Positions 24,949-40,710 of a DNA stretch of 64,000 nt are shown here, piece after piece. Both the position numbers and the translations under genes were made by a program. The first letter of the stretch is position 1. Each line of letters starts with the position of its first letter. Below the pieces are notes generated by a model. That model did not search any database. It saw only the letters and a list, made by a program, of their open reading frames with translations, and was not told the origin of the DNA. The stretch comes from the human T2T-CHM13v2.0 reference genome, Homo sapiens: assembly GCF_009914755.1 (NCBI RefSeq), contig NC_060933.1; one strand, 5' to 3'.

Positions 24949-25092
24949 CAGTAGCTTCCCACTTATCTATGTGGGATCCGTTCCAAGACCCCCAGTAGGA
25001 TGCCTGAAACTGTAGAAAGTACTGAACTATATACATTCTGTTTTTCCTATACATATATACCTATGATAAAGTTTAACTTGTAGGCACAGTAA
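24949..25092 (+). mobile_element. MER44B (Tigger7-derived MITE), segment 1 with the left TIR
   Basis: TA followed by cagtagcttcccacttatct TIR, gttccaagacccccagt...atgcctgaaac, ctatgataaagtttaa, taggcacagtaa. Confidence 0.9.
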
Positions 25093-26529
25093 TGTGTCCA
25101 GAATTGGTGGGTTCTTGGTCTCACTGACTTCAAGAATGAAGCCGCGGACCCTCATGGTGAGTGTTATAGTTCTTAAAGGTGATGTGTCCAGAGTTTCTTC
25201 CTTCTGATATTCAGACGTGTTCGGAGTTTCTTCCTTCTGGTGGACTTGAGGTCTCACTGGCTTCAGGAGTGAAGCTGCAGACCTTCGCGGTGAGTGTTAC
25301 AGCTCTTAAGGCGGCACGTCTGGAGTTGTTTGTGCCTCCCGTCTGGAGTTGTTCGTTCCTCCTAGTGGGTTCATGGTCTCACTGGCCTCAGGAGTGAAGC
25401 TGCAGACCTTTGCAGTGAGTGTTACAGCTCATAAAGGCAGTGTGGACCCAAAGAGTGAATAGCAGCAAGATTTATTGCAAAGAGTGAAAGAACAAAGCTT
25501 CCAGTGTGGAAGGGGACCCAAGTGGGTTGCCACTGCTGGCTCGGGCAGCCTGCTTTTATTCCCTTATCTGGCCCCACCCACATCCTGCTGATTGGTCCAT
25601 TTTACAGAGAGCTGATTGGTCCGTTTTACAGAGAGCTGATTAGTACATTTTGACAGGGTGCTGATTGGTGTGTTTACAAACCTTGAGCTAGACACAGAGT
25701 GCTGATTGGTGTATTTACAATCCCTTAGCTAGACATAAAGGTTCTCCAAGTCCCCACCAGATTAGCTAGATACAGAGAGCTGATTGGTCCATTTTACAGA
25801 GAGCTGATTGGTCCGTTTTGACAGGGTGCTGATTGGTGTGTTTACAAACCTTGAGCTAGACACAGAGTGCTGATTGGTATATCTACAATCCCTTAGCTAG
25901 ACATAAAGGTTCTCCAAGTCCCCCCTAGACTCAGGAGCCCAGCTGGCTTCACCCAGTGGATCCTGCACCGGGGCCACAGGCGGAGCTGCCTGCCAGTCCC
26001 GTGCCATGTGCCTGCACTCCTCAGCCCTTGGGTGGTCAATGGGACCAGGCGCCGCAGAGCAGGGGGCGGTGCTCATTGGGGAGGCTCGGGCCACGCAGGA
26101 GCCCACGGTGGTTGGGGGAGGCAGCTGAGGCCCGGTGAGAATTTGAGCGCAGCGCTGGTGGGCTGGCACTGCTGGGGGAGCCGGTGCACCCTCTGCAGCT
26201 GCTGGCCTAGCTGCTAAGCCCCTGACTGCCTGGGGTTGGTGGTGCCAGCTGGCTGCTCCGAGTGCGGGGCTGCTGAGCCCACGCCACCCGGAACTCACGC
26301 TGGCCTGCAAGCGCCATGCACAGCCCTGGTTCCCACCCATGCCTCTCCCTCCACACATCTCTGCAAGCTGAGGGAGCCAGCTCCAGCCTCGGCCAGCCCA
26401 GAGAGGGCTCCCACAGTGCAGTGGCAGGCTGAAGGGCTCCTCAAGTGTGGCCAGAGTGGGCGCCGAAGCCGAGGAGGCACTGGGAGCGAGCGAGGGCTGC
26501 AAGGGCTGCCAGCATGCTGTCACCTCTCA
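25093..26529 (-). mobile_element. Solo ERV9 LTR12 (C/D/E-type), 1437 bp
   Basis: Minus strand starts TGAGAGGTGACAG and ends CCAATTCTGGACACA; 4-bp TSD GTAA (25089-25092, 26530-26533); CCAAT repeat array; GC-rich 5' part. Confidence 0.95.
25554..25880 (-). promoter_or_regulatory. LTR12 U3 promoter: NF-Y/CCAAT array plus AATAAAAG TATA-like box
   Basis: Eight gctgattgg (CCAATCAGC on minus) plus one variant between ~25587 and 25877; cttttatt at ~25553-25560. Confidence 0.75.
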
Positions 26530-26575
26530 GTAAGAGATTAACAACAGTGACTAATAATAAAATAGAACAATTATA
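26530..26575 (+). mobile_element. MER44B segment 2
   Basis: gtaagagattaacaacagtgactaataataaaatagaacaattata continues the MER44B consensus directly from segment 1. Confidence 0.9.
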
Positions 26576-26873
26576 GGCCAGGTGTGATGGCTCACTCCTG
26601 TAATCCCAGCACTTTGGGAGGCTGAGGCAGGTGGATCACGAGGTCAGGAGATAGAGACCATCCTGGCTAACATAGTGAAACCCCATCTCTACTAAAAATA
26701 CAAAAAATTAGCCGGGCGTGGTGGCAGGCACCTGTAGGCCCAGCTACTCAGGAGGCTGAGGCAGGAGAATGGCATGAACCTGGGAGGCAGAGCTTGCAAT
26801 GAGCCAAGATTGCGCCACTGCACTTCAGCCTGGGTGACAGAGCAAGACTCCATCAAAAAAAAAAAAAAAAAAA
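26576..26873 (+). mobile_element. AluY, left boundary of the SPATA31 block
   Basis: gaccatcctggctaac, gagaatggcatgaacc, gagcttgca; its immediate flanks do not match each other. Confidence 0.95.
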
Positions 26874-26909
26874 GATTGTAAATTGCGATATCAATAATAT
26901 AAAATAGGG

Positions 26910-38575: not shown

Positions 38576-39535
38576 GCCAGAATTATTAATGCCCCAAATA
38601 GGGAGATGAAGTAGAGGGTGCCTCGCATGTTAACCAAAATGATCTCTCTTTTAGACAAAGAGGATAAACATTTGCTTATGAGGGTTTTTTGTTTGTTTGT
38701 TTGTTTTTGTTATGTCGAGCCTCTTTAAAATGTTTACAAAATGTTGAAGTTCATACAATGGGATAATTTTTTTCAGTCCCTTTTTTGTTTACATACCATG
38801 TTTGCAACTTTCTGCTTTAGGCCATCAAGAAAAATGTCCAAGGGGCACTAAAACTGTCAACATTGGGAGCTAATTCGGAATATTGTCTAAAGATGTTGTT
38901 TAGGGAGATAGTTCCTCATATTTTACATTAGCTTTAGCTAAATAATATTTTAAGGATGCAATGTTTGAGTCCAAATTGTGCTTGAGGTCTCCTCATACCC
39001 ATTAAATAGACTACTGAATGGTAGGAATATTTTGATATTGTTGTTTTAAGGTGCCTCTTAAATGAACAATCGCTGCTCTCTTAGTTATAATTCACAGTTA
39101 TTATACTGGAACCCTGCTGATGTGGTGGTAAGGCATTGTAGAGGGAAAGCAGTGTGTAATTTTATGATTACATATCCATTGTCTAGTAGGCCTGAGTCCC
39201 TGGGCTCTGACCTTTAGAAGAATTTCATAGCCATTTTTTTAACCCTTTATGTGAGACAGGAAGTCTAGTGTGGGCTGAGTTGTGTAATTGCCCTTCCCCT
39301 AGGTCTGTTAAGTATTTCCTTTTGAGGACAGGTCTTTCTTAAACAGAGCCCTACGTTCTAGTTGTATGTCAAATGGTAACTTTCCCTCTCTCCCTGCCAG
39401 GTGCACAAAGGAATTTATTTTCTGTTCACAGTGAGCACCTGGTGGGGCTCCTAGAGGTAAAACTCATGTAAGTGTGGGAGAATCCAGGCTCTTTACATAT
39501 GGGAGCAGAACCAGATCTTTTAATGTGCTTATTTC

Positions 39536-40033
39536 TGTTGACCTAAAAGTAAGAGGCTGGGCTGGGCACTGTGGCTCACACCTGTAATCCCAGCATTTTG
39601 GGAGGCCAAGGCAGGAGGATTGCTTGAGGCCAGGAATTCAAGACCAGCCTAGGCAACATAGTGAGACCTCCATCGCTACAAAAACCAAAAATAAATAGCC
39701 AGGCGTGGTAGTGCATGCTGTAGTCCTAGCTAATTGGGAAACTGAGGTGAGAGGATCACTTGATCCCAGGAGTTTAAGGTTACAGTGAGCTTTGATTGTA
39801 CCACTGCACTCTAGTCTTCCAGCCTGAGCCACAGAGCAAGATCCTGTCTCTCCAACAACAACAACAACAACAACAACAAAGGAAAGTGAGGACAGCTGCC
39901 CAAAAGACTCAGACCCAAGAAACCCTGGATAGGAACTCTATATAGCCTTTATTAAAAGCAAAAAAGGGAGACAAGGAGTGGGCTGATACAAAGCGATTTG
40001 TCAGGAATTCTCATTGGTTATAGAAATAACATT
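39536..40033. mobile_element. MER31-like ERV1 LTR fragment, interrupted by AluJ and cut off at the AluY at 40034
   Basis: tgttgacctaaaagtaagaggctg terminus; gtgaggacagctgccc; caggaattctcattggttatagaaataacatt. Confidence 0.55.
39560..39880 (+). mobile_element. AluJ with an (AAC)n tail
   Basis: ggaggattgcttgaggccagg, ggcaacatagtgagacc. Confidence 0.92.
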
Positions 40034-40337
40034 GGCCGGGCATAGTGGCTCACGCCTGTAATCCCAGCACTTTGGGAGGCCGAGGTGGGTGGATCATGAG
40101 GTCAGGGGATCGAGACCATCCTAGCTAACATGGTGAAACCCTGTCTCTACTAAAAATACAAAAAATTAGCCGGGCATGGTGGCGGGCACCTGTAGTCCCA
40201 GCTACTCGGGAGTCTGAGGCAGGAGAATAGCGTGAACCCATGAGACGGAGTTTGCAGTGAGCCAAGATTGCGCCACTGCACTCCAGCCTGGGAGACAGAG
40301 CAAGACTCTGTCTCAAAAAAAAAAAAAAAAAAAAAAA
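40034..40337 (+). mobile_element. AluY, right boundary of the SPATA31 block
   Basis: gatcgagaccatcctagctaac, gagaatagcgtgaaccc; followed by AGAACAATTATA. Confidence 0.95.
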
Positions 40338-40710
40338 AGAACAATTATAACAAATATGCCAGTTTCACTATTCTTGAGTTTTGGGGCCATTTGTAAGTGA
40401 AATAAGAGTCACCTGAACAGAAGCACTTCAGTATCTCAACAGGCACTCTGATAACCAAGACGGCTACTAAGTGACTAAACAGTGGTTACTGTATACGTAT
40501 AGCATGAATATGCTGGACAGACAGATGACTGACATCCTGAGTGGGTCACAGCAGGATGCTTGAGATTTCATTATGCTAATCTGAATGATGTGCTATTTAA
40601 ATTTATGAATTGTTTATTTCTGGAATTTTTCATTTAATATTGTAGACCAGGCTTGACTGTGGGTAACTGAAACTTCAAAAAGTCAAACCTTAGATAATGG
40701 GGGAGGACTG
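40338..40710 (+). mobile_element. MER44B segment 3 with the right TIR
   Basis: agaacaattataacaaatatgccag...ctgataaccaagacggctactaagtgactaa...ttatgaattgtttatttctggaattt...tagataatgggggaggactg followed by TA. Confidence 0.92.

What the first reader, a model, noticed from the sequence alone, without database searches (positions are those of the whole stretch)
24949..40710. SPATA31 duplicon inserted inside a single Alu inside a single MER44B: one TSD shared by two AluYs 13.5 kb apart
Seen: MER44B begins at 24949 (TA plus TIR) and reads collinearly to ...aaaatAGAACAATTATA (26564-26575), where an AluY starts. It resumes only at AGAACAATTATAacaaatatgccag (40338-40349), directly after the tail of a second same-orientation AluY, and ends with its right TIR and TA at 40710-40712. 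Neither Alu has its own TSD; the 12-bp TSD is split between them. The whole SPATA31 gene plus ~4.7 kb upstream and ~2.4 kb downstream lies between. Inference: one AluY first inserted into MER44B, then the SPATA31 block was copied into it by Alu-Alu homology (double template switch, or integration of an Alu-joined circle), leaving two chimeric Alus offset by 13,458 bp. Alu enrichment at segmental-duplication junctions is established. Here the acceptor site, both breakpoints, the size of the mobile core unit and an age limit (after AluY arose) can all be read from the sequence. I do not know whether this has been described for this locus.
Basis: partly seen in the sequence, partly recalled or inferred. 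Interest (0 to 1): 0.82.

Follow-up and report, generated by a model that had tools for sequence, protein, structure and literature searches.

The report
SPATA31 copy pasted inside one Alu
A 13.8-kb patchwork of DNA carrying the SPATA31B1P pseudogene was copied into a single Alu repeat inside an old transposon, and its joints show break repair that borrowed templates from a nearby Alu and from a SPATA31 copy, a clear but ordinary kind of example of how such duplications arise.

Summary
One MER44B-type element (24949-40710) is split by 13,762 bases. Its two halves overlap by exactly the 12 bases AGAACAATTATA, which abut the head of a left Alu (26576) and the tail of a right Alu (40337).

- The SPATA31 homology does not start or stop inside the two Alus.
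- The 32 bases after the left Alu's tail (26874-26905) are an inverted copy of the flank of another Alu 8.3 kb upstream (18506-18537). This 32-mer occurs only at these two places in the genome.
- SPATA31 homology begins at 26907, at a 2-4 base microhomology, truncating a duplicon that runs on for at least 1.5 kb in all 8 paralogues examined.
- It ends inside a third, minus-strand Alu (36322-36612) that has no target-site duplication.
- The last 3.4 kb (36613-40033) is single-copy in the complete genome.

Best reading (about 0.55): a break in the resident Alu was repaired by copying. Divergence of 5.4% from SPATA31C suggests roughly 20-25 My. This is a new, well-resolved instance of a known process. 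Outgroup genomes could not be checked.

The parts
24949..25088 (+). MER44B-type element, left end (TA at 24947-24948, terminal inverted repeat)
   Evidence: Read. Aligns to the left part of 8 other copies.
25089..26529 (+). Solo LTR inserted in the MER44B element, with a 4-base duplication GTAA (25085-25088 and 26530-26533). Not part of the event.
   Evidence: Read. Internal repeats are families D12, D13 and D18. The name LTR12/HERV9 is recalled, not tested.
26530..26575 (+). MER44B continuation, ending in the left copy of the 12-base Alu target-site duplication (26564-26575)
26576..26873 (+). Left Alu (Alu1), full length with a 19-A tail. Its head belongs to the resident Alu (it abuts the duplication). 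Its tail, and probably most of its body, was copied from the Alu at 18538-18831.
26874..26905 (+). 32-base patch: an inverted copy of window 18506-18537, with one CpG difference
   Evidence: The 32-mer is found at only these 2 places in the 3.1-Gb genome, and the control found 0.
26906..26909 (+). Junction AGGG: 2-4 bases shared by the local template (..AAAATGCAGGGAG) and by the SPATA31 paralogues (..CTRYGGGGTGACC)
26907..36321 (-). SPATA31 segment (S) carrying pseudogene SPATA31B1P (annotated 29031-35479, minus strand). It matches C copies over 26907-31932 and 32384-36600, A copies over 28422-35877 and 36190-36320, and the chr9:105.05 Mb copy over 29428-36600.
   Evidence: The frame is broken into pieces of 460 aa or less.
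36322..36612 (-). Minus-strand Alu without a target-site duplication. SPATA31 homology ends somewhere inside it.
   Evidence: Identity of B to C/X is 93.5% in the left flank, 83-85% in the Alu body and 39% in the right flank. A copies have an empty site here.
36613..40033 (+). Orphan segment (U): an old L1 fragment (with a truncated Alu at 36888-37164, duplication AAGACAGATAT), unique DNA and an old Alu (about 39551-39886). Single copy in the genome.
40034..40337 (+). Right Alu (Alu2), full length. Its tail belongs to the resident Alu (it abuts the right copy of the duplication). Its head abuts segment U.
40338..40710 (+). Right copy of the 12-base duplication (40338-40349) and the right half of the MER44B element, with TA at 40711-40712
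18506..18846 (-). Template Alu (AluB, 18538-18831, minus strand) with its own duplication AAAAGATGTAAATTG / AAAGATTGTAAATTG. It is the source of the 32-base patch (18506-18537).

Best explanation
An Alu had retrotransposed into an old MER44B-type DNA transposon, making the 12-base duplication AGAACAATTATA. Later, roughly 20-25 million years ago, that Alu was broken, probably near its head, and the break was mended by copying from other places.

The left end, carrying the Alu head, paired with an inverted Alu 8.3 kb upstream. It copied that Alu's remainder, its A-tail and 32-35 bases of its flank.

The right end, carrying the Alu tail, paired with an Alu lying upstream of a SPATA31 copy of the C/X lineage. 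It copied about 13 kb leftwards: 3.4 kb of that copy's flank, then 9.4 kb of SPATA31.

The two new strands were joined at 2-4 bases of microhomology (AGGG). The same product would come from one broken replication fork switching template three or four times (MMBIR/FoSTeS).

The result is a dead gene copy in a mosaic of three sources. Nothing was lost from the acceptor, and the resident Alu appears twice.

Shown: the split duplication, the local inverted patch, the microhomology joint, where paralogy ends, and the single-copy status of the 3.4 kb.

Inferred: that all joints arose in one event, the position of the break, and that the donor once carried the 3.4 kb next to SPATA31.
For: 1. One Alu site. 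The 12-mer occurs twice only, at an Alu head and at an Alu tail. The MER44B halves overlap by exactly 12 bases in 8 of 8 other copies.
2. Local template. The 32 bases after Alu1's tail equal the flank of the minus-strand Alu at 18538-18831, except for one CpG base. That Alu keeps both of its own duplications, so it is the parent. The 32-mer is found at 2 places in the genome, with 0 in the control. Alu1 shares with that Alu a non-CpG change (CAGTG to CAATG) and loss of the TC before the tail. It is nearer to that Alu than to the 11 other window Alus compared, in each third (89.5, 93.4 and 89.9%).
3. Non-homologous joint. 8 of 8 paralogues stay homologous to one another for at least 1.5 kb left of the point where the window copy starts. 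Only GGG/AGGG is shared across the joint.
4. The copied SPATA31 piece is 5.4% (Jukes-Cantor) from C, 6.3% from the 105-Mb copy and 6.5% from A. It shares with C/X two Alu sites that are empty in A.
5. Alu-to-Alu template switching with full-length hybrid Alus is an established route of rearrangement (PMC6071635, passages). Alus at duplication joints are also established (PMC7419210, passages).
Against: - No donor with SPATA31 next to the 3.4-kb segment exists in this complete genome. Window 37400-40033 and 38580-39550 match only themselves plus old dispersed repeats at 87% identity or less over at most a few hundred bases, and 74% or less over longer stretches. The model therefore needs a lost or since-rearranged donor.
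- The third Alu (36322-36612) also lacks a duplication and may be a further joint. That would make the 3.4 kb a separate template or a separate event.
- The Alu bodies do not locate any crossover. Alu1 is closest to the local Alu by only 2-5 points, and most shared changes are at CpG sites, which recur.
- A single event cannot be told from several without outgroup genomes, which were not available.
Confidence: 0.55

Rival explanations
1. A SPATA31 block flanked by two Alus at its donor locus was copied into the resident Alu by Alu-Alu homology at both ends, or an Alu-joined circle integrated by one crossover.
For: The block lies between two same-orientation full-length Alus that share one duplication. 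The right joint is compatible with it.
Against: The left Alu's tail and flank are copied from a local inverted Alu, not from any SPATA31 locus. SPATA31 homology starts 33 bases past that Alu at a microhomology joint, and it ends 3.4 kb before the right Alu. A circle would need a pre-existing linear arrangement of local Alu flank + SPATA31 + orphan segment, of which there is no trace.
Confidence: 0.07
2. Several separate events. For example, the orphan 3.4 kb with its flanking Alus, or an inverted copy of the local Alu region, entered the resident Alu first. The SPATA31 piece was then inserted later, with loss of part of the earlier insert, or the other way round.
For: There are four joints of two kinds: three in Alus and one by microhomology. 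The Alu at 36322-36612 has no duplication and has unrelated flanks. SPATA31C upstream regions are reported to have been rearranged repeatedly (PMC5338094, passages).
Against: It needs more steps, each landing inside the same 300-base Alu or its insert. There are no leftovers of a longer local inverted copy: D against the rest of the window gives only Alu, L1 and simple-repeat matches.
Confidence: 0.25
3. Conservative move. The 13-kb block was cut out of its earlier place, so that place is now empty, and was pasted here in a complex break-and-join rearrangement rather than copied.
For: The 3.4-kb segment is single copy. No extant SPATA31 copy has the same left end or right flank.
Against: At least the 32-base patch with Alu tail is a true copy, since its parent is intact. 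That points to synthesis rather than to cut pieces. Searches for a donor scar using the presumed duplications gave chance-level results: 11 places against 5 in the control, and 337 against 265.
Confidence: 0.1
4. Coincidence or assembly error: two unrelated Alus and two unrelated MER44B fragments.
For: None found.
Against: There is an exact 12-base overlap in 8 of 8 reference copies. The 12-mer occurs twice against 0.03 expected. The divergence of 5-7% from all paralogues is that of an old fixed copy, not of a misjoin.
Confidence: 0.01

Closest known systems
Alu/Alu-mediated rearrangement (AAMR) with hybrid Alus, ascribed to template switching (MMBIR) or MMEJ (Song et al. 2018, PMC6071635; passages read)
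   Same: The Alus at the joints are full-length and their flanking duplications do not match. Divergent Alus serve as short homology. A nearby inverted Alu is used as a template, and there is a microhomology joint.
   Different: The described cases are mostly deletions and duplications of neighbouring DNA in patients. Here the outcome is an insertion of about 13.5 kb from elsewhere into one Alu, fixed in evolution, with no loss at the acceptor.
Alu enrichment at segmental-duplication junctions, and duplicative transposition of core duplicons (Bailey et al. 2003, recalled, also cited in PMC6071635; LCR16a study PMC7419210, passages read)
   Same: A core-duplicon family (SPATA31, chromosome 9) is involved. 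There is an interspersed copy with Alus at its edges and a mosaic of pieces.
   Different: For LCR16a, all but one of 13 pre-integration sites were reported to carry a deletion of 3.4-80 kb. Here the acceptor is intact to the base, and one of the joints is not in an Alu.
Alu recombination-mediated deletion (hybrid Alu with mismatched duplications; Sen 2006 / Han 2007, as cited in PMC6071635)
   Same: The same diagnostic logic applies: duplications that do not match across an Alu betray recombination.
   Different: That is loss of DNA between two Alus, leaving one hybrid Alu. Here DNA is gained inside one Alu, leaving two.
SPATA31A / SPATA31C segmental duplications (Bekpen et al. 2017, PMC5338094; passages read)
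   Same: It is the same duplicon, with 92-95% identity over 7-9 kb.
   Different: SPATA31B is not mentioned in the main text (0 occurrences). This copy is truncated on the 3' side of the gene, is a pseudogene, and has a unique upstream flank.

Membership tests
Segmental duplication (at least 1 kb, at least 90% identity) | Long, high-identity match to another place in the same genome | tested here: met
   26907-31932 matches SPATA31C at 94.0% over 5,033 columns. 28422-35877 matches A at 91.2% and 29428-36600 matches the 105-Mb copy at 91.2%. Matches of 93-95% appear.
Alu/Alu-mediated rearrangement | The joint lies inside an Alu, giving a full-length Alu whose two flanking duplications do not match | tested here: met
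   Alu1 has AGAACAATTATA / GATTGTAAATTG. Alu2 has AGAAATAACATT / AGAACAATTATA. The Alu at 36322-36612 has none.
Alu/Alu-mediated rearrangement | The crossover can be mapped to a stretch of identity between the two parent Alus | tested here: inconclusive
   Only one parent (18538-18831) survives. Alu1 is nearest to it in all thirds, but only by 2-5 points.
Replicative template switching (FoSTeS/MMBIR) or synthesis-dependent break repair | A short templated stretch copied from nearby DNA, often inverted, lies between the main segments | tested here: met
   26874-26905 is the inverse of 18506-18537, 8.3 kb away, and the parent is intact.
Replicative template switching (FoSTeS/MMBIR) or synthesis-dependent break repair | Microhomology of a few bases at non-Alu joints | tested here: met
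   AGGG/GGG is shared at 26906-26909. The exact length is ambiguous, 2-4 bases.
Replicative template switching (FoSTeS/MMBIR) or synthesis-dependent break repair | Every inserted piece is a copy whose template persists | tested here: not met
   This holds for the patch and for SPATA31. The 3.4 kb at 36613-40033 has no second copy.
Integration of an Alu-joined circle | The tail part of the left Alu and the head part of the right Alu derive from one donor Alu next to the cargo | tested here: not met
   The left Alu's tail and flank derive from a local Alu that is not next to any SPATA31 sequence.
MER44B (Tigger-type non-autonomous DNA transposon) | Terminal inverted repeats, TA duplication, and homology to the dispersed family | tested here: met
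   TA occurs on both sides, and the ends read CAGTAGCTTCCCACTTATCTA / rc CAGTCCTCCCCCATTATCTA. There are 39 non-self matches at 72-75%, out of 1,939 candidates of which 40 were scored. The subfamily name itself was not testable, because no repeat library was on hand.
AluY subfamily | Diagnostic positions of the AluY consensus | not testable with these tools
   No Alu consensus library was on hand. From recall, both Alus are of the Y/Sc type in both arms (GAGATCGAGACCATCC, AATGGCGTGAACC). However, they read TAACA where I recall AluY has TAAAA, so AluSc/Sp is possible.

The most novel reading that the evidence does not exclude
All four joints are the trace of one repair event that hopped between three templates: a local inverted Alu, a SPATA31 copy, and a locus since lost from the human genome. 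This would be a base-resolution fossil showing that an interspersed core-duplicon copy was seeded by Alu-primed copy-repair (MMBIR or SDSA) rather than by crossing-over or a circle, with no damage to the acceptor. The only surviving copy of the 3.4-kb orphan segment would then be this passenger.
Probability: 0.35. Interest if true: 0.6.

Novelty: new member of a known kind. Interest (0 to 1): 0.45.

Why it matters
How interspersed segmental duplications are first seeded is still argued mostly from statistics, such as Alus being enriched at their edges. Here every joint of one old insertion can be read to the base.
- The acceptor is one Alu with its duplication split.
- There is a 32-base patch copied from an inverted Alu 8 kb away.
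- There is a microhomology joint into the duplicon.
- There is an orphan passenger segment.

This pattern is the one seen in present-day patient rearrangements ascribed to template switching. The locus therefore links the disease mechanism to the evolutionary origin of a core-duplicon copy, and it gives sharp predictions for ape and monkey assemblies. It does not reveal a new mechanism, and the inserted gene is dead.

Tried and rejected
1. Donor scar searches.
- The 24 bases before Alu2, with up to 3 mismatches, gave 11 places (only the window itself is exact) against 5 in the control.
- A presumed duplication of the 36322-36612 Alu followed by a T-run gave 337 places against 265 in the control.
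- Both are at chance level and gave no lead.

2. Locating the crossovers inside Alu1 and Alu2 from shared changes.
- Alu1 shares 8 derived states with the local Alu across its whole length (columns 8-296).
- Most are at CpG sites, the identity margins are 2-5 points, and Alu2 has no surviving parent. The crossovers remain unresolved.

3. Other local templates inside the insert.
- Apart from Alus, L1 and simple repeats, nothing was found.
- The 751-column match of 35879-36608 to 16345-17076 is two Alu pairs with unrelated spacers.
- The 23-base match of 38684-38706 to 44510-44532 is a TTTG repeat.

4. A reading in which the whole 13.8 kb was one retrotransposition-type insertion (one duplication, A-tail at the right end).
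- I rejected this by reasoning. The content is genomic DNA with an intron-bearing gene on the opposite strand.
- The left end would also have to start exactly at an Alu head without any homology.

5. Tandem duplication, deletion or inversion between local Alus. None reproduces a|Alu|b ... c|Alu|a with an intact parent Alu and single-copy MER44B halves.

6. Whether the C/X right flank is a part of segment U: no collinear match was found.

8. Primate outgroups could not be examined. Apart from the window's own genome, the genome search holds only prokaryote genomes, and no other tool on hand holds a primate genome.
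Full report
**Observation**

- TA then CAGTAGCTTCCC... opens a MER44B-type element at 24949.
- At 26564-26575 the element reads AGAACAATTATA and runs straight into the head of an Alu (GGCCAGG, 26576).
- A second Alu in the same orientation occupies 40034-40337. Its A-run is followed by the same AGAACAATTATA (40338-40349) and then by the rest of the element, to ...GGAGGACTG (40710) and TA.
- The 12-mer occurs twice in the window and nowhere else. The expectation is 0.03, and 0 of 100 shuffles gave two.

I tested contiguity without a repeat library.
- A search of the window's own genome with 40338-40712 listed 39 non-self matches at 72-75% (40 of 1,939 candidates were scored).
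- I fetched 8 that covered the query from its first base. I then mapped the three window fragments on them separately.
- In 8 of 8, the fragments 26530-26575 and 40338-40712 overlap by exactly 12 positions. This is direct in 6 and needs a 1-2 base extrapolation in 2.

The two halves are therefore one element, and the 12 bases are the target-site duplication of one Alu insertion. The 1.44 kb at 25089-26529 is an unrelated solo LTR with a GTAA duplication.

**Where the SPATA31 homology lies**

The window's own assembly could be searched (3.1 Gb, 24 contigs).
- The closest relatives of the gene part are four A-type copies (93%), two C-type copies at chr9:100.07 and 100.28 Mb (92-95%), and a copy at chr9:105.05 Mb, here called X (92%).
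- I fetched 30 kb around five of these and aligned them to window 23000-43000.
- C matches 26907-31932 and 32384-36600. A matches 28422-35877, plus 36190-36320. X matches 29428-36600.
- Nothing matches the left MER44B parts or the LTR. The only alignments that reach into the right MER44B half are two Alu matches from the A-type regions, running about 20 bases past the right Alu's tail.
- Nothing but Alu and old L1 similarity matches 36613-40033.
- Genome-wide, 37400-40033 and 38580-39550 find only themselves plus dispersed repeats. Those repeats reach 74% or less over long stretches and 87% or less over short Alu pieces.

**The left joint**

The 32 bases after Alu1's tail, GATTGTAAATTGCGATATCAATAATATAAAAT (26874-26905), are not in any SPATA31 paralogue.
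- A k-mer scan of the window found them in reverse complement at 18506-18537.
- Read on the minus strand, that place holds a full Alu (18538-18831) with its own duplication (AAAAGATGTAAATTG before it, AAAGATTGTAAATTG after it). The same 32 bases follow, with T for C at one CpG, and then unrelated sequence.
- In the whole genome the 32-mer, with up to 3 mismatches allowed, occurs at these two places only. The control gave 0.
- The 18.5-kb Alu keeps both its duplications, so it is the parent. Alu1's tail plus 32 bases is a copy of it in inverted orientation, 8.3 kb away.

Alu1 and the parent share several features.
- They share a non-CpG change (CAGTG to CAATG) and the loss of TC before the tail, besides several CpG changes spread from column 8 to 296.
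- Alu1 is nearer to the parent than to the 11 other window Alus compared, in each third (89.5, 93.4 and 89.9%). The margin is only 2-5 points.
- The point where the resident Alu gives way to the copied one therefore cannot be placed. The spread of shared changes suggests it is near the head.

**The joint into SPATA31**

After the patch the window reads AGGGTGACCTGG.
- The local parent continues GCAGGGAGAG, and the paralogues read ..CTRYGGGGTGACCTGG.
- Only 2-4 bases are shared, so this is a microhomology joint.
- All 8 paralogous loci examined (two C copies and six pericentromeric copies) stay homologous to one another for at least 1.5 kb to the left of this point, at 82-99%.
- The window copy is therefore a truncated, derived copy, and this edge is not the edge of any mobile unit.

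**The right end of the homology**

Homology to C and X runs to the T-run of a minus-strand Alu (36322-36612).
- Identity of the window copy to C/X is 93.5% in the 115 bases before the Alu, 83-85% in the Alu body and 39% after it.
- C and X are 97%, 91% and 96% alike over the same three parts.
- An Alu-body identity of 83-85% fits both unrelated Alus and paralogous Alus of this age, so the crossover is somewhere inside this Alu.
- The Alu has no duplication.
- A-type copies have an empty site there. The L1 sequence runs on through ...GCAGTTTTC|TTACATAGG. They also have an empty site for the Alu at 35877-36192, which in the window has the duplication TTCTATCTCACT.
- These two shared Alu sites place the window copy with C and X, against A.

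What follows the Alu is the segment I call U (36613-40033). It comprises an old L1 fragment holding a truncated Alu with the duplication AAGACAGATAT, then unique DNA, then an old Alu. It is single copy.

**Age**

The estimate rests on 5.6 kb of aligned sequence.

| Pair | Jukes-Cantor distance |
|---|---|
| B-C | 0.054 |
| C-X | 0.057 |
| B-X | 0.063 |
| B-A | 0.065 |
| A-C | 0.065 |
| A-X | 0.073 |

- The four-point sums favour (A,B | C,X) by a short internal branch. With A as the outside branch, B left the C/X line early.
- B, A and X keep 31933-32383, which C lacks. B is therefore not a copy of present-day C.
- Macaque is reported to have both A and C types (PMC5338094, passages). The A-C split is thus older than the ape-monkey split, and B-C is about five-sixths of that distance.
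- With a recalled rate of 1.1-1.3 x 10^-9 per site per year, this gives about 20-25 My (inference).
- The 9% difference between Alu1 and its parent, and the 1 in 32 difference in the patch, fit the same age once CpG decay is allowed for.

**Mechanism**

The simplest history that gives a|Alu|b ... c|Alu|a, with an intact parent Alu, a microhomology joint and no loss at the acceptor, is repair of a break in the resident Alu by copying.
- The left end primes on the inverted local Alu and copies its remainder plus 32-35 bases.
- The right end primes on an Alu upstream of a C/X-lineage SPATA31 copy and copies about 13 kb.
- The two are joined at AGGG.
- One broken fork with serial template switches gives the same product.
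- This matches what is described for Alu/Alu-mediated rearrangements, namely full-length hybrid Alus attributed to MMBIR or MMEJ (PMC6071635, passages).
- It also matches the Alu-rich edges of core-duplicon insertions (PMC7419210, passages). In that study, however, all but one of 13 pre-integration sites carried a deletion, whereas here nothing is missing.

The weak point is U. No donor with U exists today, and the Alu at 36322-36612 may be a further joint.

**Novelty**

- Neither SPATA31B1P nor FAM75B is discussed for its origin in the held library. One unrelated paper holds each term.
- SPATA31B has 0 occurrences in the main texts of the two SPATA31 family papers I opened. Their supplements were not opened.
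- The kind of event is known. The locus is a new, unusually legible example.
- Outgroup genomes, which would settle the order of events, were not available here.

Noticed in passing
window 26907-28425: This 1.5-kb stretch just 3' of the pseudogene is present at 85-90% in about 30 further places. Most are pericentromeric or acrocentric (contigs 1, 2, 3, 4, 9, 13, 14, 18, 20, 21, 22), far more than the SPATA31 gene itself. It holds a 15-base minisatellite (27116-27190, CCTGGTCAGTRRGGC type) and a 200-base inverted repeat (27584-27792 / 28219-28425).
   Followed up: partly
window 25089-26529: A solo LTR (TG...CA, GTAA duplication) sits inside the MER44B left half. It has internal tandem units of 168 and about 130 bases (D12, D13, D18). 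From recall it looks like LTR12/HERV9; I only observed it.
   Followed up: no
window 31933-32383: These 451 bases of the large SPATA31 exon are present in the window copy, in A copies and in the chr9:105.05 Mb copy, but absent from both C copies. This fits the smaller C-type protein reported in PMC5338094.
   Followed up: partly
fetched C-type regions at chr9:100.271-100.301 Mb (L025-L027) and chr9:100.058-100.088 Mb (L028-L030): In both C loci the unit equal to window 34167-36600 is present twice in tandem, about 3.5 kb apart. It begins and ends in Alus.
   Followed up: no
window 35877-36192 and 36888-37164: These are two ordinary Alu insertions with clear duplications: TTCTATCTCACT, and AAGACAGATAT for a 5'-truncated Alu. 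The first is absent from A-type copies, which show the empty site.
   Followed up: yes
window 29031-35479, minus strand: The SPATA31B1P reading frame is broken. The longest stop-free stretches on the minus strand are 460, 290, 183, 169 and 157 aa in different frames.
   Followed up: partly
chr9:105.05 Mb (fetched as L034-L036): This is a further SPATA31 copy sharing the C-type upstream Alu and right flank (96% to C there) while keeping the 451 bases that C lacks. Its gene name was not determined.
   Followed up: no
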